Below, in pieces: positions 211-15,610 of a DNA stretch of 17,533 nt. Position numbers and translations under genes: made by a program. The DNA is from Nitrososphaeraceae archaeon (GTDB taxonomy: Archaea; Thermoproteota; Nitrososphaeria; Nitrososphaerales; Nitrososphaeraceae), in contig DATFEP010000046.1 of NCBI GenBank assembly GCA_035250975.1, positions 1-17,533 of the forward strand. The letters run 5' to 3'. Within the stretch, counting starts at the first letter, position 1; every line of letters begins with the position of its first letter. The notes below the pieces were generated by a model. That model was not told the DNA's origin. It did no database searches and saw only the letters and a list, made by a program, of their open reading frames with translations.

Positions 211-1363
211 ATTCCATTTTCATAACGAATAAAGCTAGTTTATTGGTGTATGATGTTTTGGTGTAACTATCATCCAAACCAACAAACTAACACAGCAGAA
301 AAGATCTACATCTATTCTAATTAGTATTTTGTATTTAATTGGTTTGATTCGTTGGCCTCATAACAGTAGAGGAGGAGGACGTGGTAGACCATATGTCTAT
401 TCGCCTACTGTTATTTTGAGATGTTTTGTAGTACGTATATGGTTTCGATTGGATTCCAACAGAGCATTGCATGAATACCTTGCAATGGAAGTACCATATA
501 ACAAAAAGGTAATGAGAGTATGTGGACTATCCAGAATACCTTGCAGACGAACATTTGATAGACGTATTGCTACGATATCTAATGATATCAAAAACAGAAT
601 TACTACAATGGGTAAACTTTTTGTGCATGATAAAATGATTGATCCATCTATTCTTTCAACAGATAGTACTCTCATAAAGGCTAAAGGTCATGTATGGCAC
701 AAATCATTTATGAAGAAAAAAGTAGTACCTCGTTCTGGTATCGACATAGATGCAATGTGGGGATTCAGCCATACAAAGGGTTGGATATTTGGATATAAAC
801 TACATCTGATATCTACCAGTACCGGTTCTATCATTGTACCTTTGGCAGCCGATTTTACAACTGCCAACATACCTGACAATCAAATGTACAGTATATTGGT
901 AGCAAGTCTACCTCTTGCAATAATCAGAAGAACATTATACATGTCTGCAGATCCTGGATATGATGATCATGAATTGTATGATCTCAGTACAGATATGGGA
1001 TTTAGATTGGTGTGTCCTGTACAGAGATATAAAAATACACCTGCTGACAGGATAAAACTGATAGAATTTTATGAATCGGATATTGGACATGCTATCTATT
1101 CTCTAAGAAGTATATCAATTGAACCGTTGATAGGGCATATCAAATCTGCGTTCAGGATAGATCCATTACCTATTAGAGGATATACTAGGGCTTGTGCAAT
1201 AGTCCTATTGTCAGTACTACTTTACCAGATAGTTGTATATTATAACTAAGACAACCAACAAAGATAATCCTATCGCAATCAAATACATGTTAGGAACATA
1301 AAGATTGACTACATGCTAGTGTAAACATTACAATATTTGTTAATCGAATTATGACCCAGTCTC
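194..1363 (+). mobile_element. Insertion sequence (~1.17 kb), IS4/IS5-superfamily DDE type
   Basis: Imperfect terminal inverted repeats TTGAGGCTGGGTTATAATT (192-210) and AATTATGACCCAGTCTCAA (1347-1365; 17/19 match to the reverse complement) enclose a single DDE transposase ORF. Ends placed at GAG...CTC, uncertain by ~2 bp. No clean target-site duplication seen. Confidence 0.85.
329..1249 (+). CDS. DDE transposase (DDE_Tnp_1-like), probably C-terminally frameshifted
   Basis: N-terminal GRGRP..Y motif; STDST (D1), GWIFGYKLHL, SADPGYD (D2), YSLRSISIEPLIGHIK (YREK-like, E). The frame is open upstream to 254, so the true start may precede 329. After the TAA at 1247-1249 another frame reads KTTNKDNPIAIKYMLGT* to 1301, the likely original tail. 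Confidence 0.88.
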   Translation: MYLIGLIRWPHNSRGGGRGRPYVYSPTVILRCFVVRIWFRLDSNRALHEYLAMEVPYNKKVMRVCGLSRIPCRRTFDRRIATISNDIKNRITTMGKLFVHDKMIDPSILSTDSTLIKAKGHVWHKSFMKKKVVPRSGIDIDAMWGFSHTKGWIFGYKLHLISTSTGSIIVPLAADFTTANIPDNQMYSILVASLPLAIIRRTLYMSADPGYDDHELYDLSTDMGFRLVCPVQRYKNTPADRIKLIEFYESDIGHAIYSLRSISIEPLIGHIKSAFRIDPLPIRGYTRACAIVLLSVLLYQIVVYYN

Positions 1364-1393: not shown

Positions 1394-1573
1394 TCACACA
1401 TAGAATTGAAATTTCTTTATCTGAAATGAAACATCCTCTTCATACAGTCACTTTCAAATACTCTTTATTATTCCATCTTCAATTATCAAAAGTCGATCAT
1501 TGTTCTCAAAAGGATCTGTAAGAATATCAACATCGATTTCAACCTTTAATCTCACGCGACTGCTCGATACCAT
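1394..1573 (-). pseudogene. Probable pseudogene of a small (~59 aa) hypothetical protein
   Basis: Manual translation MVSSSRVRLKVEIDVDILTDPFENNDRLLIIEDGIIKSI*K*LYEEDVSFQIKKFQFYV*. Two in-frame TGA (1454-1456, 1448-1450), each one base from TCA/GGA. Resembles, from memory only, small thaumarchaeal hypotheticals. Confidence 0.5.
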
Positions 1574-1977
1574 AAAAATTATAATGGCATCTCAAGAATT
1601 GATTGTATGTTATTAATTGAAAAATCATTATTGAATAATCCATACCTTTCAAGTTATTATATTTCTAGTATTGGCAAACCATTCTATTTATTTGTGTATC
1701 TCTATGAAACGATTTTTTATCGAAAAAAGAATGAAATACTACGACCAGACTAGAAAAAAAATGACAAACATAGGATATATTGGAATATTGATTGTTGATA
1801 TTAGATTTTGTCCTTAAAGTCACTTATTTTAGTAATCTATGCTCACTACTATCCAACTGAAAGTTTTATTGAAATATTGATTATGCATAATATATCGGAT
1901 CAATAGAGTCATTAAGATATCTATATGTTGTCTATAGTAGTATAAAAAATAAATACTAGTAGTTTAAATACAATACA

Positions 1978-2406
1978 TTGTCAAATATAAGAAATTTAAA
2001 TACACCTGTAGTTGAAATTGGTGCAAATGAAAAACCACGAGATATTGAACATATTCTTGATTTGAAAAACATACATGATCAACTAAAAATTAGTACTAAT
2101 ACGCAGAAAACAATTCTAAAAAAATTAGAAGGCGAAAATGATCATTATTCAAAACTAGAAAAAATTTTGCTGGATGTGAAAAATGCCGTTAAATCGACTA
2201 ACAATCCTAATCACAAAAGGGAATTACAATCACTGGGACAGATCAAATCTCAAATCTCCCAACTGCAATCAAATGTAAAGAAAATTGGTAGTGATATAGA
2301 TACAATAAATACATCAAAATATAATAATAAAAAGAAAGAGGAGAAGCAGAAGAATAAACAAATGAAGAAAGAGGAGAAGCAGAAGAATAAACAAATGAAG
2401 AAATAA
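1978..2406 (+). CDS. Hypothetical coiled-coil protein with Lys/Glu-rich repeated C-terminus
   Basis: 142-aa ORF with TTG start; heptad-like L/I..Q/K pattern; ends KKKEEKQKNKQMKKEEKQKNKQMKK. Confidence 0.65.
   Translation: MSNIRNLNTPVVEIGANEKPRDIEHILDLKNIHDQLKISTNTQKTILKKLEGENDHYSKLEKILLDVKNAVKSTNNPNHKRELQSLGQIKSQISQLQSNVKKIGSDIDTINTSKYNNKKKEEKQKNKQMKKEEKQKNKQMKK
2332..2403 (+). repeat. Perfect 33-bp in-frame tandem repeat (2.2 copies)
   Basis: AAGAAAGAGGAGAAGCAGAAGAATAAACAAATG at 2332-2364 and 2365-2397, plus AAGAAA. Confidence 0.95.
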
Positions 2407-2438
2407 TCCTATAATTGATAACACTATATTTGGCAAGA

Positions 2439-2474
2439 CATGGATCTCATATCAAAATCGGTATGAGGTCCGTG
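2439..2474 (+). other. 15-bp stem-loop (3 G.U pairs, 6-nt loop) between convergent genes
   Basis: CATGGATCTCATATC-AAAATC-GGTATGAGGTCCGTG; uninterrupted pairing only as + strand RNA. Confidence 0.6.
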
Positions 2475-2651
2475 GTAGAATGTTCTTGATAAATCCAGTT
2501 TCCATCAGCACATCGCGACATTTTATGACGGATTCACTATATGCAGACCAGTTTCTTTGAGATTCTGAGAATAATGTTGTTACAAGATAATAATGCTACA
2601 CACTAGGTCGGTTAATATAAAACGGGAGAAATTTTATTTTATTATTTTGAA

Positions 2652-3425
2652 TTATTTATTGAATGGAACTTTTAAAAATTGATCTATTTTTTGTTTTAAC
2701 TCGTTAAGTACTTCTTCTACTGTTCGATTTCCATTAATTTTAATAATTCCATATTTTCTTTGTATTCTACTAAATTCTTGCTTCATTTTCTTTTGATAGA
2801 GAATAAAAGATTCTAAAAGATCTTCAGAGAACCCCATATCTTCTCCAGATTCGTAATAATCAAGAAAATTATCTTTATCAAAAATTCCTTTCAAAAGTTC
2901 CTCTGTAGATTTTTGAAAGGCCCTTCGTATAAGTTCATTTGGATCTACATCTAAATAAAAAACAAGATCGGGTTTAATTGCAAAACCATATAAATTATAT
3001 GACCATATTCTATTAATTTTTCTTACAGCATCCCTAGCCATAAGTGTGTAGATATACCTATCTGCTAATACTATATATCCGGCTCTCAAAGCTGGGATTA
3101 TTTTGTTCTCTAGTTGATCTGCAAAATCTGCAGCATAAAATAAACTCATGGTCCTTTTTCTTAATAAATGTCTTTCTTTTGCCTCTAGTATTCCTTCACT
3201 TACCAGTTCAGATCTTCTGAGACCTGTATTAAGAACTGCGTGACCATTTGCTTCAAGATAATTATTTAATAATAAGATTTGTGTACTTCTTCCGGATGAA
3301 TCTGGTCCTTCTAATATGATCAATCTACCTTTTAATTCTATATTTTTTAAATAAGGAATTCCATGTCCATAATATTTAATAATATTAGATTTTTCCATTT
3401 TTTTTATCTTATTTGAATTATTCAT
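2652..3425 (-). CDS. Thymidylate-kinase-like P-loop protein, subunit B (variant Walker A)
   Basis: LIILEGPDSSGRSTQ, AGYIVLADRYIYT, KPDLVFYLDV, INGNRTVEEV; TMPK fold motifs; ATGA overlap with upstream paralog. Confidence 0.9.
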   Translation of the reverse strand: MNNSNKIKKMEKSNIIKYYGHGIPYLKNIELKGRLIILEGPDSSGRSTQILLLNNYLEANGHAVLNTGLRRSELVSEGILEAKERHLLRKRTMSLFYAADFADQLENKIIPALRAGYIVLADRYIYTLMARDAVRKINRIWSYNLYGFAIKPDLVFYLDVDPNELIRRAFQKSTEELLKGIFDKDNFLDYYESGEDMGFSEDLLESFILYQKKMKQEFSRIQRKYGIIKINGNRTVEEVLNELKQKIDQFLKVPFNK

Positions 3426-4144
3426 TTTACTATCTCTCCCGGAATAGTATTGTTAAATTTTTCTCTAACCATTTTTTGTTGTTGTTCTATATTTAGTGTT
3501 CCGTCTATAACAGTGAAATTTTCAGTCGTGGCCATTTTCTCATATTGTTCTATTATTCTACTTTGAAAAATACGATAACTTTCATAAATATCATTACTTA
3601 AATTTAGATCCATCCCCGCCTCGTAATATTTTAGCTTGGGTCTTCCAGATAATATTCGTCCTGCAGCTACATCCACCGGAACTCTGAAATAAAATGTGAT
3701 ATCAGGTTTTAAAGCAAAATCATATACTTTTCTGATCCATAGCGGATCACATCCTCTTACTATATCTCGTGCATATGCTGTATAGACATATCTATCTGCC
3801 AATACTATGTAACCAGCTCTTAATAATGGAAAAATATTCCTTTCGTACCGATCTGCAAAATCAGTTGCGTGGAGTAACGAAAATGTTGTAGGTGTAAGTT
3901 GTTCTTTTTTCTTACCTCTAGAGGTAACATTTTTTACAATTACAGATGAATTCCACTCTGATAAAAAAGCTGGTGTATTCTTAAATTTAAGCCATTTATC
4001 AAGAAGATGAATTTGTGTTGATTTTCCTGATCCATCAATTCCTTCAACTATAATTAATTTACCTTTTATATCGTACTTATTTTTTCTTTTGGTTGTGGTA
4101 TTAGCTGTTATTTTACTAGATCTTCTTATTTTTATCTGTGTCAT
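3422..4144 (-). CDS. Thymidylate-kinase-like P-loop protein, subunit A (intact Walker A)
   Basis: LIIVEGIDGSGKSTQ, AGYIVLADRYVYT, KPDITFYF, VIDGTLNIE; ATGA overlap with ppx stop. Confidence 0.9.
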   Translation of the reverse strand: MTQIKIRRSSKITANTTTKRKNKYDIKGKLIIVEGIDGSGKSTQIHLLDKWLKFKNTPAFLSEWNSSVIVKNVTSRGKKKEQLTPTTFSLLHATDFADRYERNIFPLLRAGYIVLADRYVYTAYARDIVRGCDPLWIRKVYDFALKPDITFYFRVPVDVAAGRILSGRPKLKYYEAGMDLNLSNDIYESYRIFQSRIIEQYEKMATTENFTVIDGTLNIEQQQKMVREKFNNTIPGEIVK

Positions 4145-5775
4145 TTACTATATGTACTCCTTTTTTTGCCTTGGACCAATAATGTATATTCTATCGAAAG
4201 ATCAAATGAAGACTTAAAATCTGAAATTATTTCTTTAAATAAAATTTCTGGAAAGGAAAAGATGTCTTTATTTTTATCACCTTGTATTACGATTTCCAGT
4301 AAAAGCTTGTTTGTTATTTTTGTAAATTCTTTGATTTGAATTATTAATTTGTTATTTTTCACAAAATTTAAAAATCGTAAGAAAGTTGATATTCTTTCGA
4401 TAATGTTTTTAATCTTTTTTTTATCATAATAATAATATAATAGATTTCTATAATTTTCAGATAGTTCAAGAGCTATTTTCGGCTTATTGATTGCCAGCAG
4501 GGATAATGCTAATAAAATATGTTGATGATGATCCAGATTCGCGATATCCTCGTTGATGAGAATATAAAATTGACCAATATTATCATTAATGAGAATCTTG
4601 GACATATATAATATCGATTGATTAATAATAGTGTATTCATTTTTTGTTATAATTCCATTTGATAAGAATTTCTTTGCTAAGCTCGAATTGCATCTGTCTT
4701 TATTGTAACAGTTATTTAGCAGATAATTGTCCAAATTAGTTCTATTATCCAAATGACAGGATTCAAGAAAATTTAGGAGCACTCCCTCTCGTAATCCTTT
4801 TGTACTAACAATAATACTCTTAAAACCGAATTTGGACATAAGGAAGTAGATTACATATAATCCTGTCTTGATTGTTTCTGCTCTATTTGCTCCTATTACA
4901 TCTATCTTAGATAGCTCTTCTTTATTCATGTTAGATAGATGATCTTTGATGGTTGATAAAGAACGAAAATCTAGTTTGTAGTTATGTAATCTTGTGATTG
5001 GGTATTCTTTGATCAATTGATCATATCTTGCAATCGTTCTGAGAGTTCCCCCAACACCTATTAATACAGTAGATTCACTATCTATTTCTAATTCTTTTGA
5101 ATCAGGTAATTGATTCTCAATATGTTCTCCTAAAATATTGCAAACAACCTTAAATTTTTTACTAGTGGCAGTTTTGTTATCTTCATTATTTGAAAAAAAT
5201 TTCTGGGTTAGCTTCAATGCTCCCAAGGGAAGAGATATTACTCTCCTAATTCTATAATCTTTAGAACTTACTAATTCTATAGTTCCTCCCCCCAGATCAA
5301 AAAATAAGCAATTTGAAACACATAGTGAGTTCAATGCACCTAGATATGAATATGCAGCTTCTTCATTAGCTGATAATAATTTGAATTTAAATCCTGTTTC
5401 TTCTTCTACTTTTTTCAGAAACAATTTCTTATTTTGCGCTTCACGTACTGCGCTAGTAGCAAATGGTATTGTAAATTCAATAGATTCAGAATTAATAACA
5501 TCACGAAAATATTTTAGAGATTCAATAGTTCTATCGATAGCCTCTGTTCGAAGGTATCCTGTTTTGTTTAGACCATCTCCAAGTTTCACCCTGATAGTTT
5601 TCTCATAGTATTTTGTATAAGATTTATTAGGAGATATGATATAATGAACTAATTTTAGAGAATTATATCCCAAATCTATTACCGATACTTTACGGTATGA
5701 AAGTTTTCCATAAGTCATTTTGTTTATGGTCTTACTTAGATGATACTCTTTAATACTCTCGGTGTAAGTAACCAT
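4141..5775 (-). CDS. ppx: Ppx/GppA family exopolyphosphatase (likely true start ATG at 5718)
   Basis: ASKHA motifs IDLGYNS, ATSAVREAQN, EEAAYSYLG, DLGGGTIEL, SLPLGA, GVGGTLRTIA, GLREG; divergent helical C-terminal region. Confidence 0.92.
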   Translation of the reverse strand: MVTYTESIKEYHLSKTINKMTYGKLSYRKVSVIDLGYNSLKLVHYIISPNKSYTKYYEKTIRVKLGDGLNKTGYLRTEAIDRTIESLKYFRDVINSESIEFTIPFATSAVREAQNKKLFLKKVEEETGFKFKLLSANEEAAYSYLGALNSLCVSNCLFFDLGGGTIELVSSKDYRIRRVISLPLGALKLTQKFFSNNEDNKTATSKKFKVVCNILGEHIENQLPDSKELEIDSESTVLIGVGGTLRTIARYDQLIKEYPITRLHNYKLDFRSLSTIKDHLSNMNKEELSKIDVIGANRAETIKTGLYVIYFLMSKFGFKSIIVSTKGLREGVLLNFLESCHLDNRTNLDNYLLNNCYNKDRCNSSLAKKFLSNGIITKNEYTIINQSILYMSKILINDNIGQFYILINEDIANLDHHQHILLALSLLAINKPKIALELSENYRNLLYYYYDKKKIKNIIERISTFLRFLNFVKNNKLIIQIKEFTKITNKLLLEIVIQGDKNKDIFSFPEILFKEIISDFKSSFDLSIEYTLLVQGKKRSTYSK

Positions 5776-6266
5776 CTTAATTCTCCCTGTAAAGTAGGTA
5801 CAGTGGAAGTTATTCTAATTTTCGATAAACCTGCCTTCTTTAGGATAATATTACTATTTGATTTTATGTCATTATTAGTCTTATTTTTATTACTACTAGT
5901 ATTTGATATGATGTCACTAATCATGGTACTGAGATATGGTTCATGTCCAACAATTAGAATAGAAGACATTTGATTAAATTCAGATATAATTTTGTAAACA
6001 TTTAATATATTTCCTTCTGGTTGTAGATCTTTGCATTTTAAGATTTTTACTTTTTTATTAAATAAATTATTTATTATATCCGCAGTTTCTAGACTTGAAG
6101 AGATAGTACTTGATAATATCAGATCGATTTTGATTTTTAATTTTTTAATTGATTTTCCTATTTTTTCAATTTCAGATCTTCCTGAAAATGTTAGAGAGTG
6201 ATTGGAATCTACAGACGAGTATAGTTTTTTAGATGTTTCTCCATGTCTAAGTATATAGAGTTCCAA
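5736..6266 (-). CDS. sixA: SixA-like histidine phosphatase superfamily protein
   Basis: LYILRHG, ILIVGHEP, LKKAG, LRWLLTP; first gene of the operon; some pocket arginines missing. Confidence 0.85.
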   Translation of the reverse strand: MELYILRHGETSKKLYSSVDSNHSLTFSGRSEIEKIGKSIKKLKIKIDLILSSTISSSLETADIINNLFNKKVKILKCKDLQPEGNILNVYKIISEFNQMSSILIVGHEPYLSTMISDIISNTSSNKNKTNNDIKSNSNIILKKAGLSKIRITSTVPTLQGELRWLLTPRVLKSII

Positions 6267-6629
6267 GATATTGATTCAATTGTTATATAGGAATAAGAAA
6301 TTTTAGTTTTACATATGTATTCAATATAGTATATCATAGTAAATATAGTAGACAATAGAAAATTATCTGGAAAGATATAAGCATATTCTTTAAAGTTTTA
6401 TCTTAAATATATGCAAATTGATATACATTAGATAAAATGATGCAGTCTAACATATTAAATAATGATGAAAATTTAGTAAAGGGAATAAAATGAAATCGTC
6501 AAATGTGTCGTTTAATAATCAAAAAAATAATGATAATGATAGAAGAAATAATTTTTGGAAGAAATTCTACGGAGCAAAGATGAATTTCAAAAGGTATATT
6601 TTTTATTTTATAATTCCATTAATTAAGAT

Positions 6630-7193
6630 ATGTCTTTTCTAAATACACTACATTCCGGAAAAAACCCCCCAGAAGATATTAATGTAGTCATAGAGATTCC
6701 AAAGGGCAGTAACATAAAATATGAATTAGATCCTACAAATGGTATTTTGTATCTAGATAGAATACTGTCAGTTGAAATGGTTTATCCTTTTAATTATGGA
6801 TTCATTCCGAATACTCTTGAAAAGTCAGATAAACTTACCACTTCCAAAGATAATTTAGATGTCTTTGTTATCGGGATCGAGTCCCTACAACCGAAAAGTG
6901 TTGTTAACTGTGTTCCTATTGGAGCAATCTTAACTGAAGATCAAGATGGACTAGACTCGAAAATAATTGCAAGACCATCGTCAAAAACAGATAAATTAAA
7001 TAATGAGTTTTTAAATGATTTAGAAGATATAAATTCACATATCCTGAAAAAATTAATACACTTTATTGAACATCATAAGGATCTAGAAGACAATAAATTT
7101 GTAAAAATTATAGAAATTGCACACAAAGAAAGAGCAAAAAGAATAGTTTTAGAGGGAATAAAGAATTATGAAAAGCATGTCAAATCGTTATGA
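6630..7193 (+). CDS. ppa: Family I soluble inorganic pyrophosphatase
   Basis: VVIEIPKGSNIKYELD, LDR, YPFNYGFIPNT, DNLDV, EDQDGLDSKII, HKDLE. Confidence 0.93.
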   Translation: MSFLNTLHSGKNPPEDINVVIEIPKGSNIKYELDPTNGILYLDRILSVEMVYPFNYGFIPNTLEKSDKLTTSKDNLDVFVIGIESLQPKSVVNCVPIGAILTEDQDGLDSKIIARPSSKTDKLNNEFLNDLEDINSHILKKLIHFIEHHKDLEDNKFVKIIEIAHKERAKRIVLEGIKNYEKHVKSL

Positions 7194-7299: not shown

Positions 7300-7968
7300 C
7301 TATGAGAAACTTTTATGATTCAACTTTATCCATTCTGGATATCCAACTGAATTCTTTCGTTCAAGTTTTATCGCGAAATCTTTCAAGATCTTTTGAACTG
7401 CCTTACGAAATTCTCTCTCATTATTCCTCTTTCCAATACTCTCAAATCCTATTGTCCACCATGCTGTAGCATTTTCGTTCATAATCTTGGTAATTTCACA
7501 TTGTAGCCCGTCATCTTTATCGATATTGATCCATTCAACTGATTTATATGAATTCTCTTGAAAAAGATATCTCCTTAGAAACCTCAATTTTTCTAACTTT
7601 AAAATAGGTCCATTATTTGGACTGGGAAAAGGGTCGATTCTACTGTCATTGGATAGCGGAAGGTCATCTAATATCCATCCCAACTTTGTCCAATCTTCCA
7701 TATTGCCATATATCTGTCTCCCTGTTACTGAAAAATCAGATTTTATATCTTTTCTCCATTTTATTTCAAGTCTGAATCTCGGTTTATTTGTTTTTTCATC
7801 ATTAAAAGGCCTTAACTTGATACCAATATCTTCGCTATTTAGGAGAAAGATATATCGGTCTTCTCGAGGATCCTCTCTGATAAACACATCATCAATCGTT
7901 TTAAACCAATCCAAAGCTAATTTGTAATTAGTCATATCATCTTCAAACCATCTGAGTTCCCAAGGCAT
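7300..7968 (-). CDS. Hypothetical protein, probable CYTH/triphosphate-tunnel-like fold
   Basis: Order of motifs WELRWF, REDRY, GIKLR, LEIKWR, KLRFLRRY, CEIT, TIGFES, GYPEW mirrors the CYTH strand pattern; polyP gene context. Confidence 0.6.
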   Translation of the reverse strand: MPWELRWFEDDMTNYKLALDWFKTIDDVFIREDPREDRYIFLLNSEDIGIKLRPFNDEKTNKPRFRLEIKWRKDIKSDFSVTGRQIYGNMEDWTKLGWILDDLPLSNDSRIDPFPSPNNGPILKLEKLRFLRRYLFQENSYKSVEWINIDKDDGLQCEITKIMNENATAWWTIGFESIGKRNNEREFRKAVQKILKDFAIKLERKNSVGYPEWIKLNHKSFS

Positions 7969-8205: not shown

Positions 8206-10263
8206 TTATACCAGAAATTTATCACGCCTTTGAATATGATTCTCTTTGTTTTTCGCATCATTATCAAAATCAAATATACCATTCTGCCAAGTAAATTCTC
8301 TAAATATCTGTCTTTTCTTTATATTATGCTGTTGTTCAGTTTTTAGTAATAATGATAATATCTTCACCGCTTCCACTATAAACTTGCCTTTGTTTAGCAT
8401 TACGCATTCGGCCCTATGACCTCTTGCGGCATCAGTTATTTCAGCCCTTGTAGGTAGACCACTCTTAGCTAATGTTTCAAGAACTTGTGTAGCCAAAATA
8501 ACAGGAACGTGTGCAGCTTCACATAAACACAAGATATCCTCTTGAATTAGAGACAAATTTTCAAATCCCATTTCTACAGCAAGGTCCCCTCTTGCAATTA
8601 ATACACCAAATTTAGGCAAGGAAAGTCCGGTTAAAAGAATTTTTCCTAAATTGTGAACAGCATTACGATTTTCTATTTTTGCTATTACTCCAAAATCAGT
8701 ATTTCCCAGTTTTACCAACTCATCATACAAATTTCTTACATCTTCAGGAGAATGCGCAAAGGATATTCCTACTGCAGTTGCATTTTTCACAATAAATTTT
8801 AGATCTTTAATATCTTGGGATGTTATAGCAGGAATATCTAAATTTGAATCGGGAAAATTCAATCCCTTCTCTGATTGAATCTTTGCAGTCTTATCTGATG
8901 GATATGTTATTTCTAATTCTAAATATTGATCGTTAGTGGATATTACTTTAGCATCAATTTTTCCATCATCTATTAAGACTCTATGACCTATCTCCACTTT
9001 GCTTAAAACTTCTGGCATTGTACAACTAATTCTACCATAACCCTCGAAAAGATTCGAGTTTTCGTTAAATTCTTTCTTATTGATCAAAATTTTATCACCT
9101 GCCTTTACTTCAAGATCTATCGGATGTGGTTTAATTGTGCCAATGACAATACCTCGCTGAATTTCTCTAGGATATGGACACAGGTTAGTATTGTCTTCTT
9201 TGTTTTTGATGTAGAATTTGTTAACAAAATATTTCTCTCTATGTATAATTAAACCTTCATCCAGATATACTGATTTGTCTATTCCAACACGTGTTCGGGT
9301 TTTACTTACCTTTTCGAGAACAGTCATCATTCGATATTTTCCCCGAGAATCATAAAATAATAATCTCTCTCCTACCTCAAGTTCAGTTAATTCTTGCTTT
9401 CCATCTGATACAGAAATTACAAAACTTTCAGGAACGCCTATCAAATTTGTTCTTTCAGTATATTCTGCCTCACAATCGAAAAATCCCTCAACCAATTTAA
9501 CGGATCTTCCGTATGTGTCCTTCGGAACAGTAATTTTTAAAGGACCTGTTCCTAAACTCGTCTGTTTTATTCTGATTTTGGGTCCGGCTAAATCCATAAC
9601 AATTCTGCATTTTCTACCAACACCATGACCGCTCTGAATCAACCTATCCTCGGTATTTCTGATAGATTCTATTATCATTTTCCAGTTTTGTTCTGTATCA
9701 TAAGCACAGTTTATTCTTGCAATATCCATTCCGTTCTTTAGTAACTCCTCTAGTAATTGCGGCTGGTGAGCTATGCCAATATCTACAGTCACCATTATAC
9801 GAGTTGTTCTATTATCTCTGGGACGGCCTAATAATAATCGACTACGGTTTGTAATTATTACTTGAGCATCATCTTGATTTATTTTCTCCAGAGTTGTATT
9901 AGAATTGATAACGTATCCATAATGTTTCAAAATTTGTTCTATACTAATTAGTACATGATCTTCTAATCTTCCTAAAGAAGAAAGACCATCCTCAGCCAAT
10001 CTTAGTTGAAGTTGTTCTATGTTTCTTTTTCTTAAAACAAGATAACACAATAGGTTGTCACAGCATTTGTTCTTTGACTGAAAATTACTGTCATTTATCT
10101 TGAAATATTCTTTTATTTTTTCAGACTCATTGATTATACCATTATATAATAAATATAGATCCCTTCCTAACTTTCTCTGTTCATTAGTGAGGGAGATTGA
10201 TTGAATATCATCTGTATAATCGTTATTTGTGGCTAGATTCATTTTTGTTCCACTGTAAAACAA
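8206..10263 (-). CDS. pyk: Atypical long pyruvate kinase family protein
   Basis: TRIMVT, GMDIARINC, DLAGPKIR, IDDGKI, KGLNFP, IAKIE, IARGDLAVE, ATQVLE, PTRAEITD, CVMLNKG. Has a ~150-aa N-terminal extension (YLVLR...GLSSLGRLE) and no C-terminal allosteric domain. Confidence 0.9.
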   Translation of the reverse strand: MFYSGTKMNLATNNDYTDDIQSISLTNEQRKLGRDLYLLYNGIINESEKIKEYFKINDSNFQSKNKCCDNLLCYLVLRKRNIEQLQLRLAEDGLSSLGRLEDHVLISIEQILKHYGYVINSNTTLEKINQDDAQVIITNRSRLLLGRPRDNRTTRIMVTVDIGIAHQPQLLEELLKNGMDIARINCAYDTEQNWKMIIESIRNTEDRLIQSGHGVGRKCRIVMDLAGPKIRIKQTSLGTGPLKITVPKDTYGRSVKLVEGFFDCEAEYTERTNLIGVPESFVISVSDGKQELTELEVGERLLFYDSRGKYRMMTVLEKVSKTRTRVGIDKSVYLDEGLIIHREKYFVNKFYIKNKEDNTNLCPYPREIQRGIVIGTIKPHPIDLEVKAGDKILINKKEFNENSNLFEGYGRISCTMPEVLSKVEIGHRVLIDDGKIDAKVISTNDQYLELEITYPSDKTAKIQSEKGLNFPDSNLDIPAITSQDIKDLKFIVKNATAVGISFAHSPEDVRNLYDELVKLGNTDFGVIAKIENRNAVHNLGKILLTGLSLPKFGVLIARGDLAVEMGFENLSLIQEDILCLCEAAHVPVILATQVLETLAKSGLPTRAEITDAARGHRAECVMLNKGKFIVEAVKILSLLLKTEQQHNIKKRQIFREFTWQNGIFDFDNDAKNKENHIQRRDKFLV

Positions 10264-11095: not shown

Positions 11096-11923
11096 TTGCT
11101 AACTCTATTACCATTTTTAATAAAACTACATCAAAGTATTGAAAGATTGAACCATAGAACCAATGCATATATTAAAAATTCTAATGAAAAAAATATCCAC
11201 GATGTAAGAACTTCTGTTAGAAGATTCAACTCGACATTTTTGTCATTACCTAAAAAATACAGAACCGGACCAATGTTACTATCTGAATATAATCAAATTG
11301 CAAATAAATTTTTTAAAATTAATAGTAAAATCAGAGATTACGATATTATCTTTGACATATTAAATAATTACCCACAAAACAGTCAGAGAGATCTAGTTAT
11401 TGATTCTATTAAAAAAGATAGACAATCAAATTTAGAAAAAGCAAAAACAATAGCAATTTCTCTAAAAGATCTCGGTGCTAATGAAGTTGTAGATAAAATG
11501 AATATTACAGAAAGGGAATTGCAGAAACGATATAATAAAGTTCTTTCAAACCTCATTTCAAAAATAGAATTAAACCTTCCTATTGTAATAACTAATGCTA
11601 AAAAAATAGAAGAATTACATCAATTGAGGAAAGACTGTAAAAAAATGAGATATATGTTGGAGTTATTACCGGAAGAAAACAGAGATGCAATAGAATTAAA
11701 AAAGATTTTTGAAAAAATTCAGGATCATCTTGGCTCTATTCACGACTTTGATATAACTATCAATTATTTACAATCATTGCAACCGAATAAAGAAATTCAA
11801 GAAATGATAAATACTGAAACAGAAAAAAGGAGATTGAAATATGAAGAATTTTTGAACTTTTCCAAAAGACGTTTACAGTTAACAAGAGATTCTTTCCTCA
11901 TAAGAATCAAGATCTTGAAATAA
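11096..11923 (+). CDS. CHAD domain protein (polyphosphate-binding)
   Basis: Two His/basic repeats IHDVRTSVRR and LHQLRKDCKKMRY, plus IRDYD and QDHLGSIHD; stand-alone all-helical domain. Confidence 0.92.
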   Translation: MLTLLPFLIKLHQSIERLNHRTNAYIKNSNEKNIHDVRTSVRRFNSTFLSLPKKYRTGPMLLSEYNQIANKFFKINSKIRDYDIIFDILNNYPQNSQRDLVIDSIKKDRQSNLEKAKTIAISLKDLGANEVVDKMNITERELQKRYNKVLSNLISKIELNLPIVITNAKKIEELHQLRKDCKKMRYMLELLPEENRDAIELKKIFEKIQDHLGSIHDFDITINYLQSLQPNKEIQEMINTETEKRRLKYEEFLNFSKRRLQLTRDSFLIRIKILK

Positions 11924-12943: not shown

Positions 12944-14020
12944 TTAGAGTGTATCAAGGCTTAGATTAGGATTATCACTTTGGTTATCTGCAGATTTTTC
13001 TATACTAAATTTGTCCTTAATTTCGCCGTCATTTCCATAAAATTTCGCATCAAGTCGGTTTCCATTGTCTACAACTTTTATTTCCAAAAATCCATACTCT
13101 TCAAATTGCTCCGCATTAAAATAAGACTGATCGTCCAATTGGTGAAAATCCTTTCCTCCAGTACCAACTATTGCAAAAATAGTACCTTGGGAATCAACGT
13201 ACAAATCTTCTCCCGACCCTTCTCCTAAAACTGCTGCTTGGATAATTGTAGGTTTTGCCGGATTTTCATCATTATATAATAGTGGATAAGTTCTTTGATA
13301 ATTATGAAGATGTCCTTGTAATACTAAATCTACTCCAAATTTTTCAAAGAGACCGTGATAAGTATCCCTAAATGATTCTAATCCCTCGTGATTACTTTTG
13401 GAAGTATACATTGCCTGATGGAAATATATGATTATCCAGTCAATAGATGAATCAGTTTTTGTTTTTATTAAATCATCATGAACAAATTGAAATTGTTTTG
13501 ACCCCTCTTCATAAGGTGCTTCTGTAGACATTGCTATAAAATGGACATTGTTATGATTAAAAGAATAATACTGTTGATCAACATTTGTATAATCCATATA
13601 TTGTTTTGCTAATGATTGGCTCTCGAATTCGTGATTACCAAAAGATATTTTGAGTTTTTGAGGATCTATTTCTTCTACAATGTCCTTCCAACATTTCATA
13701 TTCTTCTGATAGGAATAATCTCCTAATCCCAATATTATGTCAGGATTTGTAGCTAGAATATTACTAGCAGTTTTTATTGCTTCTTTATTACAACTCCAGT
13801 CTCCTACTGCTGCAAAAGTGAAATCTTGCTCACCGAAGTCATTTGCTCCATGATCTTTTTTCTGCTCTATATTAACAGAATTATAAGAAACAAAAGAATT
13901 GTTAGGCATCTTCTCCGAATACGTTAATTTCGGACAAAAAATAATGGATATACTAGTTAACATTATAAAACACAATACTACTATTGATGTTGTACCTTTT
14001 TTCAAATTTATTAAACTCAT
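12944..14020 (-). CDS. Secreted or membrane-anchored calcineurin-like metallophosphoesterase (purple acid phosphatase-like)
   Basis: AAVGDW, GLGDYSY, FGNHE, YFH, QGHLHNYQR, VGTGG motifs; N-terminal basic plus hydrophobic signal/TM segment. Confidence 0.9.
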   Translation of the reverse strand: MSLINLKKGTTSIVVLCFIMLTSISIIFCPKLTYSEKMPNNSFVSYNSVNIEQKKDHGANDFGEQDFTFAAVGDWSCNKEAIKTASNILATNPDIILGLGDYSYQKNMKCWKDIVEEIDPQKLKISFGNHEFESQSLAKQYMDYTNVDQQYYSFNHNNVHFIAMSTEAPYEEGSKQFQFVHDDLIKTKTDSSIDWIIIYFHQAMYTSKSNHEGLESFRDTYHGLFEKFGVDLVLQGHLHNYQRTYPLLYNDENPAKPTIIQAAVLGEGSGEDLYVDSQGTIFAIVGTGGKDFHQLDDQSYFNAEQFEEYGFLEIKVVDNGNRLDAKFYGNDGEIKDKFSIEKSADNQSDNPNLSLDTL

Positions 14021-14833: not shown

Positions 14834-15610
14834 TTAAGACACAAATGAGTTTTGGTATTTTTGAGTACGTGACTTATACCCATTATTCATTCTTGCGTTT
14901 GCAATCTTAAATTTTTCAGAATCTTTTTCTATACCTATGAATTTTCTCTTCATGTTAAAAGCAGCAATTCCAACAGTGCCTAATCCCATCATAGGATCCA
15001 ATACCGTTTGATATTCTATTGTAAGATTTTTTATGATATATTCTGCTTCAACTGAGGACTGTTCCCGGTCATCAGGTGTTTTAGGTAAAGGTTTAGCATC
15101 AATATGGTCTCCAATTGTATTAGATAAAGTCAAGTTATTTGTTTTGTCTCCTTTCACATACCATAGCATTGGATTCCATTCTACACAAACATTCCTTGGA
15201 TAGACTTTCGAATGATTTCGGGAATGCTTAACGCAAAAAATCCACCAGTATTTTAGATTATCATTATTGTCGTCAAATAGCCGTATAACGTGATCCAGAA
15301 TTACATGATCTACAAAAAAGACCAGACTACCTCCTGGTTTCAGTACTCTATCAGCTAGCCATGCTAGCCCCTCATAAATGGAAAGTGCTTCAAATCCGTA
15401 AGGTGGTTCCGTCAGAATGAGGTCGATAGAATTATCATCTATAATGTACTTCTCTTTTTCCATGAAATCTGCATGAATCAACCTGCAGTTACTTGATCCA
15501 TTATTATTATTGGCATCAATATTAGACAAGACAATTTTAACATCCTGGAGATACAAGCAAGCCATATCGTGTACATAGTTCGCTGAAATTATTTGTAATA
15601 TCATGAACAA
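14834..15610 (-). CDS. Orphan N6A/N4C DNA methyltransferase, beta-class order, variant motif IV
   Basis: SIDLILTEPPY (motif IV), RVLKPGG, VLDPMMGLGTVGIAA (motif I), RKFIGIE...IANAR. Start may be the ATG at 15565. Confidence 0.85.
   Translation of the reverse strand: MFMILQIISANYVHDMACLYLQDVKIVLSNIDANNNNGSSNCRLIHADFMEKEKYIIDDNSIDLILTEPPYGFEALSIYEGLAWLADRVLKPGGSLVFFVDHVILDHVIRLFDDNNDNLKYWWIFCVKHSRNHSKVYPRNVCVEWNPMLWYVKGDKTNNLTLSNTIGDHIDAKPLPKTPDDREQSSVEAEYIIKNLTIEYQTVLDPMMGLGTVGIAAFNMKRKFIGIEKDSEKFKIANARMNNGYKSRTQKYQNSFVS

What the first reader, a model, noticed from the sequence alone, without database searches (positions are those of the whole stretch)
2652..4144. Coupled pair of thymidylate-kinase-like paralogs in a ppx operon: candidate two-subunit polyphosphate kinase / polyP:nucleotide phosphotransferase
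Seen: two paralogs (shared LRAGYIVLADRY[VI]YT, KPDxxFY, YYE[AS]GxD) joined by ATGA overlaps to each other and to ppx. Both lack TMPK signatures: REP is replaced by SEWNSS or TGLRRS, and LFxADR reads LHATDF or FYAADF, so the dTMP-binding Arg is replaced by Phe. Established: PPK2 enzymes share the thymidylate-kinase-like P-loop fold, and some are two-domain fusions; ppx/sixA/CHAD clusters commonly contain a ppk. Inference: these are not DNA-precursor kinases. They form a hetero-oligomer that fills the missing ppk slot, making polyP or using it to phosphorylate nucleotides. I know of no biochemical characterisation, but could not search.
Basis: partly seen in the sequence, partly recalled or inferred. 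Interest (0 to 1): 0.9.

Follow-up and report, generated by a model that had tools for sequence, protein, structure and literature searches.

The report
Known archaeal polyphosphate kinase PPK3 pair

Summary
Two 35%-identical thymidylate-kinase-like paralogs (3422-4144 and 2652-3425, minus strand) are joined by ATGA overlaps to each other and to ppx, with sixA upstream.

In Sulfolobus acidocaldarius, Saci_2019 (catalytic, cPPK3) and Saci_2020 (regulatory, rPPK3) form an alpha2beta2 enzyme. It prefers ADP + polyP -> ATP. The paper names Nitrososphaeraceae as a main home of the family, and the window comes from a Nitrososphaeraceae genome.

The upstream gene scores 216 bits against the solved cPPK3 homolog STK_15430. 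In a tree both genes fall in the c and r clades, apart from canonical dTMP kinases. A canonical tmk lies elsewhere in the genome.

Two corrections. The genome also has a PPK2, so no ppk slot is missing. The window's r subunit keeps the DRX arginine that the paper says rPPK3s lack. Its defect is a Walker-A Lys->Arg, seen in 103 of 107 r-type genes; DRX loss occurs in only 15 of 107, 14 of them in Sulfolobaceae.

In passing I found cPPK3-like domains fused to SPX or MFS domains, one of them in a protist.

Verdict: already known, low interest.

The parts
3422..4144 (-). cPPK3-like catalytic subunit (P0002, 240 aa), annotated 'dTMP kinase' in public records
   Evidence: 216.5 bits, E 3.8e-63 to PDB 2plr/5h70 (STK_15430, the cPPK3 homolog named in the paper). 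Motifs GIDGSGKST, SEWNSS, HATDFADRYE and DRY are present. It sits in the upstream-gene (c) clade of the tree. Its ATG overlaps the ppx stop.
2652..3425 (-). rPPK3-like regulatory subunit (P0001, 257 aa), with Walker-A Lys->Arg (GPDSSGRST) and DRY kept
   Evidence: 35% identical to P0002. 120.4 bits to 2plr. It sits in the downstream-gene (r) clade, SH-aLRT 99, together with the Sulfolobaceae downstream genes. Its ATG overlaps the stop of the upstream gene.
4141..5775 (-). ppx, exopolyphosphatase (P0003, 544 aa)
   Evidence: Pfam Ppx-GppA 166.2 bits; TIGR03706 239.9 bits, below its 307 cut-off. It is the only Ppx-GppA match in the genome.
5736..6266 (-). sixA-like histidine phosphatase (P0004, 176 aa, TTG start)
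   Evidence: His_Phos_1 33.6 bits; TIGR00249 sixA 68.7 bits, cut-off 74.5.
6630..7193 (+). inorganic pyrophosphatase, divergent neighbour (context)
   Evidence: Pfam Pyrophosphatase 144.4 bits.
11096..11923 (+). CHAD-domain protein (context, about 5 kb beyond the sixA end of the operon)
   Evidence: Pfam CHAD 54.8 bits.

Best explanation
The two genes encode the catalytic (3422-4144) and regulatory (2652-3425) subunits of a family-3 polyphosphate kinase (PPK3). They are co-transcribed with sixA and ppx in a Nitrososphaeraceae archaeon. By homology to SaPPK3, the c subunit binds ATP/ADP at the P-loop, as a dTMP kinase does. It uses a basic cleft in place of the dTMP site to hold polyP. It transfers phosphate reversibly between polyP and ADP/ATP, with the balance towards ADP + polyP -> ATP. 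The r subunit is a non-catalytic paralog that oligomerises with c (alpha2beta2 in Sulfolobus) and raises its activity. Shown here: orthology, synteny, motif states, a separate canonical tmk, and weak support from a complex prediction. Inferred from the paper: the activity, its direction, the stoichiometry and the energy-buffer role.
For: Published biochemistry of the orthologs: Saci_2019 alone makes polyP and Saci_2020 is inactive but activates it. Neither has dTMP kinase activity, the complex is alpha2beta2 by SEC, and ADP is the preferred acceptor (PMC12995831, sections 4 and 7). The paper names Nitrososphaeraceae as a main host (abstract), and public names of near-identical proteins say Nitrososphaeraceae.

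P0002 scores 216.5 bits against STK_15430 and at most 54.2 bits against true dTMP kinases. Locus L024's upstream gene is identical to STK_15430 over 201 aa, which anchors family f21 as Sulfolobaceae.

Synteny: in 109 loci (29 from a 401-genome phylum sample, the window included, and 80 from genome contigs) the upstream gene is c-type in 109. An r-type gene follows on the same strand in 107. ppx was found in 24 of 29 loci with 1.5-kb flanks and in 63 of 80 loci with up to 5-kb flanks.

Tree (79 rows = 36 of the 109 loci plus 7 canonical kinases; quick IQ-TREE): the PPK3 clade and the canonical clade are split at 100. The downstream genes are one clade at 99. The window's genes sit in Nitrososphaerales clades at 99.

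A canonical tmk lies on contig 44 at 125.8 bits.

Invariant basic residues: 8 in the 34-row c alignment (K41, K78, R99, R118, R126, R130, R163, K172) against 2 in the r alignment. This matches the paper's basic cleft in c only.

Complex prediction of c + r: verdict 'weak support', score 0.55, best of 3 controls 0.01. The mark was reached by 58 of 80 solved complexes and 2 of 110 mismatched pairs. At 0.60 or under it was reached by only 7 of those 80 and by both mismatches. The runs agree in at least 91% of contacts, and partner pLDDT is at least 81. dTMP-kinase homodimers are solved, so the pass may reflect likeness.
Against: No enzyme of the Nitrososphaerales or bacterial branch has been assayed. 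The window's proteins are only 47-54% (c) and about 30-33% (r) identical to the Sulfolobaceae ones.

The paper explains rPPK3 inactivity by loss of the DRX arginine. The window's r subunit keeps DRY, as do 92 of 93 non-Sulfolobaceae r-type genes, so its inactivity is not established.

The genome also has a PPK2, so PPK3 is not the only route between polyP and nucleotides here.

The complex prediction is only weak support. Co-transcription is inferred from overlapping stop/start codons. Short contigs from three RNA-labelled runs cover parts of the three genes, but none bridges a junction, and DNA carry-over is not excluded.
Confidence: 0.88

Rival explanations
1. This is a PPK3 in which the second subunit is not a dead scaffold. 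It keeps the DRX arginine and only swaps the Walker-A Lys for Arg. It could therefore be a nucleotide-binding sensor of the ATP/ADP ratio, or a weakly active second site, which would make the Nitrososphaerales/bacterial enzyme mechanistically different from SaPPK3.
For: Walker-A Arg is present in 93 of 93 non-Sulfolobaceae r-type genes, and DRX Arg is kept in 92 of those 93. All 14 Sulfolobaceae r-type genes have DGY, and 4 of those 14 keep the Walker Lys. Strict conservation of GRS[T] suggests the site is still used. That K->R in Walker A usually spares binding and cripples transfer is established knowledge, recalled rather than tested here.
Against: The r alignment has few invariant basic residues. 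Saci_2020 is inactive. There are no binding data for any r subunit.
Confidence: 0.25
2. Both genes are ordinary nucleotide-monophosphate (dTMP or other NMP) kinases duplicated next to ppx by chance, as the public annotation 'dTMP kinase' says.
For: Both pass the Pfam and TIGR00041 cut-offs. Public names say 'dTMP kinase'.
Against: The dTMP-binding Arg and the EP/FPD motif are replaced in both genes, while all 7 canonical kinases keep them. A better-scoring canonical tmk exists elsewhere in the genome. The pair forms a clade apart from canonical kinases. The orthologs lack dTMP kinase activity. The c-then-r order holds in 107 of 109 loci.
Confidence: 0.02
3. The pair works mainly as the cell's polyP synthase, with net ATP -> polyP, as the first reader's 'missing ppk' idea implies.
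For: No PPK1 was found. SaPPK3 can make polyP at high ATP/ADP ratios (abstract). The pair sits in an operon with ppx, as ppk1 often does (paper section 8).
Against: SaPPK3 strongly favours ATP formation. A PPK2 is present in this genome. The genome is 94.6% complete, so absence of PPK1 is not proven.
Confidence: 0.2

Closest known systems
SaPPK3 of Sulfolobus acidocaldarius (Saci_2019 cPPK3 + Saci_2020 rPPK3; Hofmann et al., JBC 2026, PMC12995831) and the solved cPPK3 homolog STK_15430 (PDB 2plr/5h70)
   Same: Two adjacent dTMPK-superfamily paralogs lie in the order ppx - c - r, with sixA and CHAD nearby. The c subunit shares GIDGSGKS, TEWNSS, HATDFxDRYE, DRY and a basic lid. The dTMP site is lost, and a separate canonical tmk exists.
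   Different: The window's c subunit is nearer to bacterial ones (55-66% identity) than to Sulfolobaceae ones (47-54%). Its r subunit keeps the DRX Arg and carries Walker-A Arg. CHAD is not in the operon. The host is a mesophilic ammonia-oxidiser lineage that also has PPK2. It has not been assayed.
PPK2 (Pfam PF03976), including two-domain class II enzymes
   Same: A P-loop kinase fold, a polyP-dependent nucleotide kinase bias, and one active plus one inactive module (paper discussion).
   Different: P0001 and P0002 do not match PF03976. PPK2 is a separate family, and a true PPK2 is encoded elsewhere in this genome.
Canonical thymidylate kinase (TIGR00041 / PF02223)
   Same: The same superfamily and the same P-loop, DRX and lid layout. 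Both window proteins pass the model cut-offs.
   Different: The dTMP-binding Arg is replaced by Phe, and the EP/FPD motif by EWN or GLR. The pair forms a separate clade at support 100. The orthologs show no dTMP kinase activity.

Membership tests
PPK3 (family-3 polyphosphate kinase) | Two adjacent dTMPK-superfamily paralogs on one strand, c-type upstream of r-type | tested here: met
   The same order holds in 107 of 109 related loci.
PPK3 (family-3 polyphosphate kinase) | The upstream gene is orthologous to the characterised or solved cPPK3 (Saci_2019 / STK_15430) | tested here: met
   216.5 bits, E 3.8e-63 to 2plr/5h70. In the tree it falls with the upstream genes, apart from canonical kinases at support 100. 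The c rows form two starred clades in an unresolved fork with the r clade.
PPK3 (family-3 polyphosphate kinase) | The downstream gene belongs to the rPPK3 lineage | tested here: met
   All 36 downstream genes in the tree, the 8 Sulfolobaceae ones included, form one clade at SH-aLRT 99 (quick search).
PPK3 (family-3 polyphosphate kinase) | dTMP-binding residues are not conserved, and a canonical dTMPK is encoded elsewhere | tested here: met
PPK3 (family-3 polyphosphate kinase) | Conserved basic residues (the polyP cleft) in c but not in r | tested here: met
   8 invariant Lys/Arg in the c alignment against 2 in the r alignment, 34 rows each. The cleft itself was not modelled here.
PPK3 (family-3 polyphosphate kinase) | The r subunit lacks the DRX arginine (the paper's stated reason for its inactivity) | tested here: not met
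   P0001 reads ADRY. Only 15 of 107 r-type genes lack the Arg: 14 Sulfolobaceae and 1 bacterial. 103 of 107 have Walker-A Arg. So this feature fits the Sulfolobaceae branch, not the whole family.
PPK3 (family-3 polyphosphate kinase) | Linkage to polyP genes (ppx, sixA, CHAD) | tested here: met
   The window has sixA-ppx-c-r, with CHAD about 7 kb away. ppx is present in 24 of 29 and 63 of 80 related loci.
PPK3 (family-3 polyphosphate kinase) | A heteromeric c/r complex (alpha2beta2) | tested here: inconclusive
   The heterodimer prediction gave 'weak support': score 0.55 against best control 0.01. The tetramer was not modelled.
PPK3 (family-3 polyphosphate kinase) | Reversible polyP:ADP phosphotransferase activity and no dTMP kinase activity | not testable with these tools
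   Known only for SaPPK3.
PPK2 | A match to the PPK2 domain (PF03976) | tested here: not met
   P0001 and P0002 have no PF03976 hit. The genome's PPK2 is a different gene on contig 32.
Canonical dTMP kinase | The dTMP-binding Arg and the EP/FPD motif | tested here: not met
   all 7 canonical kinases have them, and none of the 216 PPK3-type rows has Arg at that column.

The most novel reading that the evidence does not exclude
Outside Sulfolobaceae, the PPK3 regulatory subunit is not a degenerate scaffold. It is a conserved nucleotide-binding pseudo-kinase (Walker-A Lys->Arg fixed, DRX Arg kept) that senses the adenylate charge and gates the catalytic subunit. On this reading the widespread soil-bacterial and ammonia-oxidiser PPK3 is an allosterically switched polyP/ATP buffer working beside PPK2. 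SPX- and MFS-fused cPPK3-like domains in protists would extend the same chemistry to eukaryotic phosphate sensing.
Probability: 0.2. Interest if true: 0.5.

Novelty: already known. Interest (0 to 1): 0.22.

Why it matters
It confirms that a sequence-only reader can re-derive a real and recently discovered enzyme family. It also flags that public annotation still calls these genes 'dTMP kinase'. For ammonia-oxidising archaea, the polyP/ATP buffer machinery is PPK3 plus PPK2 plus PPX, not a missing kinase. The small new points are these. The r-subunit hallmark across the family is Walker-A K->R rather than DRX loss. The family is common in Acidobacteriota and other soil bacteria. Fused forms exist, one of them an SPX-linked form in a eukaryote. 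These points could guide mechanistic work on PPK3 regulation.

Tried and rejected
The sigma-70 promoter and terminator scan of 2300-6700 gave 32 promoter-like sites against 28.8 expected and 1 terminator-like site against 1.0 expected. It is uninformative and not suited to archaea.

RNA evidence: three RNA-labelled runs from three studies each gave two short contigs, 95-100% alike, on parts of r, c and ppx. None bridges a gene junction and DNA carry-over cannot be excluded, so neither expression nor co-transcription is shown. Parts without cover mean nothing.

The 552 tblastn-confirmed stretches cannot be used as a count of PPK3, because the search pattern EGIDGSGK also fits canonical kinases. 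Only the 80 loci that were kept were examined.

My first extraction script picked far-upstream ATGs and then crashed. I replaced it with tblastn-core fragments. Five of those fragments held 1-2 stop codons, probably alignment run-over into the upstream gene; they were read as X and not examined further.

The tree used 36 of 109 loci to save time and a quick search only. No AU test and no careful search were run.

I considered folding each subunit and running a fold search. I dropped this because the sequence match to a solved structure was already decisive.

They may already show the Walker-A change, the bacterial spread or the PPK2 co-occurrence.

Full report
What is there. On the minus strand the window carries four genes in a row. 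They are sixA (5736-6266), ppx (4141-5775), a 240-aa thymidylate-kinase-like gene (3422-4144, P0002) and a 257-aa paralog (2652-3425, P0001). The ppx stop overlaps the start of P0002, and the P0002 stop overlaps the start of P0001, each as ATGA. The paralogs are 35% identical (E 5e-46). Both pass the Pfam Thymidylate_kin and TIGR00041 thresholds.

What it is. A literature search found Hofmann et al., J Biol Chem 2026 (PMC12995831) and its bioRxiv version of 2024. I read the JBC abstract and sections 4, 7 and 8, plus passages found by word search. Of the preprint I saw only the search listing. In Sulfolobus acidocaldarius the operon is sixA - ppx - saci_2019 - saci_2020 - CHAD. Saci_2019 (cPPK3) makes polyP from ATP. 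Saci_2020 (rPPK3) is inactive but activates it about ten-fold. The complex is alpha2beta2 by SEC, and neither protein is a dTMP kinase. The reaction is reversible with a strong bias to ADP + polyP -> ATP. [quoted passage not shown] Near-identical public proteins are named Nitrososphaeraceae archaeon, 'dTMP kinase'.

Membership tests. P0002 scores 216.5 bits (E 3.8e-63) against PDB 2plr/5h70, the STK_15430 protein that the paper calls a cPPK3 homolog. It scores at most 54.2 bits against true dTMP kinases. P0001 scores 120.4 bits against the same chain.

A search of 401 genomes of the phylum found the adjacent pair in 2 of 2 other genomes of the window's family. It also found the pair in 12 of 56 genomes of a sister family. 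A strong c-type match turned up in 14 of 15 genomes of family f21. One f21 locus encodes a protein identical to STK_15430 over 201 aa, so f21 is Sulfolobaceae. A scan of one genome per GTDB species returned 80 best loci: 19 archaeal, 58 bacterial (34 of them Acidobacteriota) and 3 unplaced.

Across these 109 loci the upstream gene is c-type in 109. An r-type gene follows on the same strand in 107. The two exceptions, L044 and L049, come from one MAG. ppx lies in 24 of 29 loci with 1.5-kb flanks and in 63 of 80 loci with up to 5-kb flanks.

A quick IQ-TREE tree of 79 rows (36 of the 109 loci plus 7 canonical kinases) gave three clear results. Canonical dTMP kinases separate from the PPK3 rows at support 100. 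All downstream genes form one clade at 99. The window's two genes sit inside Nitrososphaerales clades (99 each), which nest among bacterial sequences. That nesting is in line with the paper's view of transfers from bacteria.

The genome has a better-scoring canonical tmk on another contig: 125.8 bits, against 78.2 and 74.3 for the pair. All 7 canonical kinases examined keep the Arg that both paralogs replace by Phe. The c alignment has 8 invariant Lys/Arg and the r alignment has 2, as expected for a polyP cleft on c only.

A heterodimer prediction gave 'weak support'. The score was 0.55 against 0.01 for the best of 3 controls. The mark was reached by 58 of 80 solved complexes and 2 of 110 mismatched pairs. 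At 0.60 or under it was reached by only 7 of the 80 and by both mismatches. Contact agreement was at least 91% and partner pLDDT at least 81. Because dTMP-kinase homodimers are solved, this pass may only reflect likeness.

Where the window differs from the published picture. First, the paper attributes rPPK3 inactivity to replacement of the DRX arginine. In my census of 107 r-type genes, that arginine is lost in 14 of 14 Sulfolobaceae genes (DGY) and in 1 of 93 others. The window's P0001 reads ADRY. By contrast, the Walker-A lysine is arginine in 93 of 93 non-Sulfolobaceae r-type genes and in 10 of 14 Sulfolobaceae ones. The paper's main text does not mention this, and its supplements could not be read. 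So the family-wide mark of the r subunit is GxxxxGR[ST]. Whether the window's r subunit is truly inactive, or is a nucleotide-binding regulator, remains open.

Second, the genome is not short of a ppk. A PPK2 (233.4 bits) lies on contig 32, and PPK2 is found in 5 of 7 other genomes of the family. The PPK3 pair was found in 7 of the 8 family genomes examined. Five of the 8 hold both, though in one of them the PPK2 frame has two stops. PPK1 domains were not found in the window's genome, which is 94.6% complete. The expected anti-correlation with ppk2 therefore does not hold in this family.

How it most likely works. The c subunit binds ADP/ATP at GIDGSGKST. Its DRY arginine and lid arginines position the phosphates. 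PolyP lies in the basic cleft that replaces the dTMP site. The r subunit, by homology, forms the core of a hetero-oligomer and stabilises the active state. Net flux follows the adenylate charge: polyP is drawn down to ATP when ADP rises and is built only at high ATP/ADP. PPX and SixA in the same operon, and PPase and CHAD nearby, complete a polyP turnover island. Only the orthology, the synteny and the residue states are shown here. The chemistry is inferred from SaPPK3.

Verdict. However, it is already known, and the family and its presence in Nitrososphaeraceae are in print. The residual new points are minor: the r-subunit hallmark, coexistence with PPK2, the wide bacterial spread and the fused forms.

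Noticed in passing
window 3282-3311 (P0001 P-loop) and 107 r-type genes in L006-L121: The Walker-A Lys is Arg in 103 of 107 regulatory-type subunits. The DRX Arg, said in the paper to be replaced in rPPK3s, is lost in only 15 of 107: 14 Sulfolobaceae and 1 bacterial.
   Followed up: yes
G000 contig 32: 20535-21194 (locus L005, ORF 1438-2274 minus strand): A single-domain PPK2 (278 aa, 233.4 bits) is encoded in the same genome. PPK2 is found in 5 of 7 other genomes of the family, so PPK2 and PPK3 coexist in this lineage. The paper's introduction says Crenarchaeota lack PPK1 and PPK2.
   Followed up: partly
proteins P0194, P0191, P0209: cPPK3-like domains, 39-41% identical to P0002, occur fused to other domains. 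One carries an N-terminal SPX domain (P0194, a transcript of the protist Ancoracysta twista by its EukProt name). Others carry an MFS transporter (P0191, P0209). All have a C-terminal DUF2252/APH-like domain. Their motifs are near cPPK3 but not identical ([RS]WN[ST]S, [QE]ATDL). No paper holds both 'SPX domain' and 'thymidylate kinase'.
   Followed up: partly
proteins P0125, P0135, P0145, P0150: Single-chain forms with two TMPK-like domains exist. P0125 (460 aa) is from Alicyclobacillaceae. Others of 650-696 aa add a Ppx-GppA domain III/HD module. These are probably c+r fusions, which the paper mentions only as one possible exception.
   Followed up: partly
L042-L121: 58 of the 80 best c-type loci in one-genome-per-species contigs are bacterial: 34 Acidobacteriota, and also Chloroflexota, Armatimonadota, Nitrospirota and others. 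All carry the c-then-r pair. They are 55-66% identical to P0002, closer than the Sulfolobaceae genes. This is wider than the paper's 'a few bacteria'.
   Followed up: partly
L044 and L049 (one Thermoproteota MAG): Two sixA-ppx-cPPK3 loci have no r-type gene downstream. In L049 a convergent unrelated gene follows. Whether an r gene lies elsewhere was not checked.
   Followed up: partly
window 2865-2900 approx. (P0001 residues 176-187): P0001 has a 12-residue insert in the lid region that is absent from the other 14 Nitrososphaerales r-type proteins aligned.
   Followed up: no
window 8206-10263 (-), 7300-7968 (-), 12944-14020 (-), 329-1249 (+), 14834-15610 (-): Other genes lie around the operon. 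There is a 685-aa protein whose pyruvate-kinase barrel match starts only at residue 376, a 222-aa ORF with no Pfam match, and a calcineurin-like phosphoesterase. There is also a DDE transposase about 1.4 kb beyond the r gene, and a DNA methylase.
   Followed up: no
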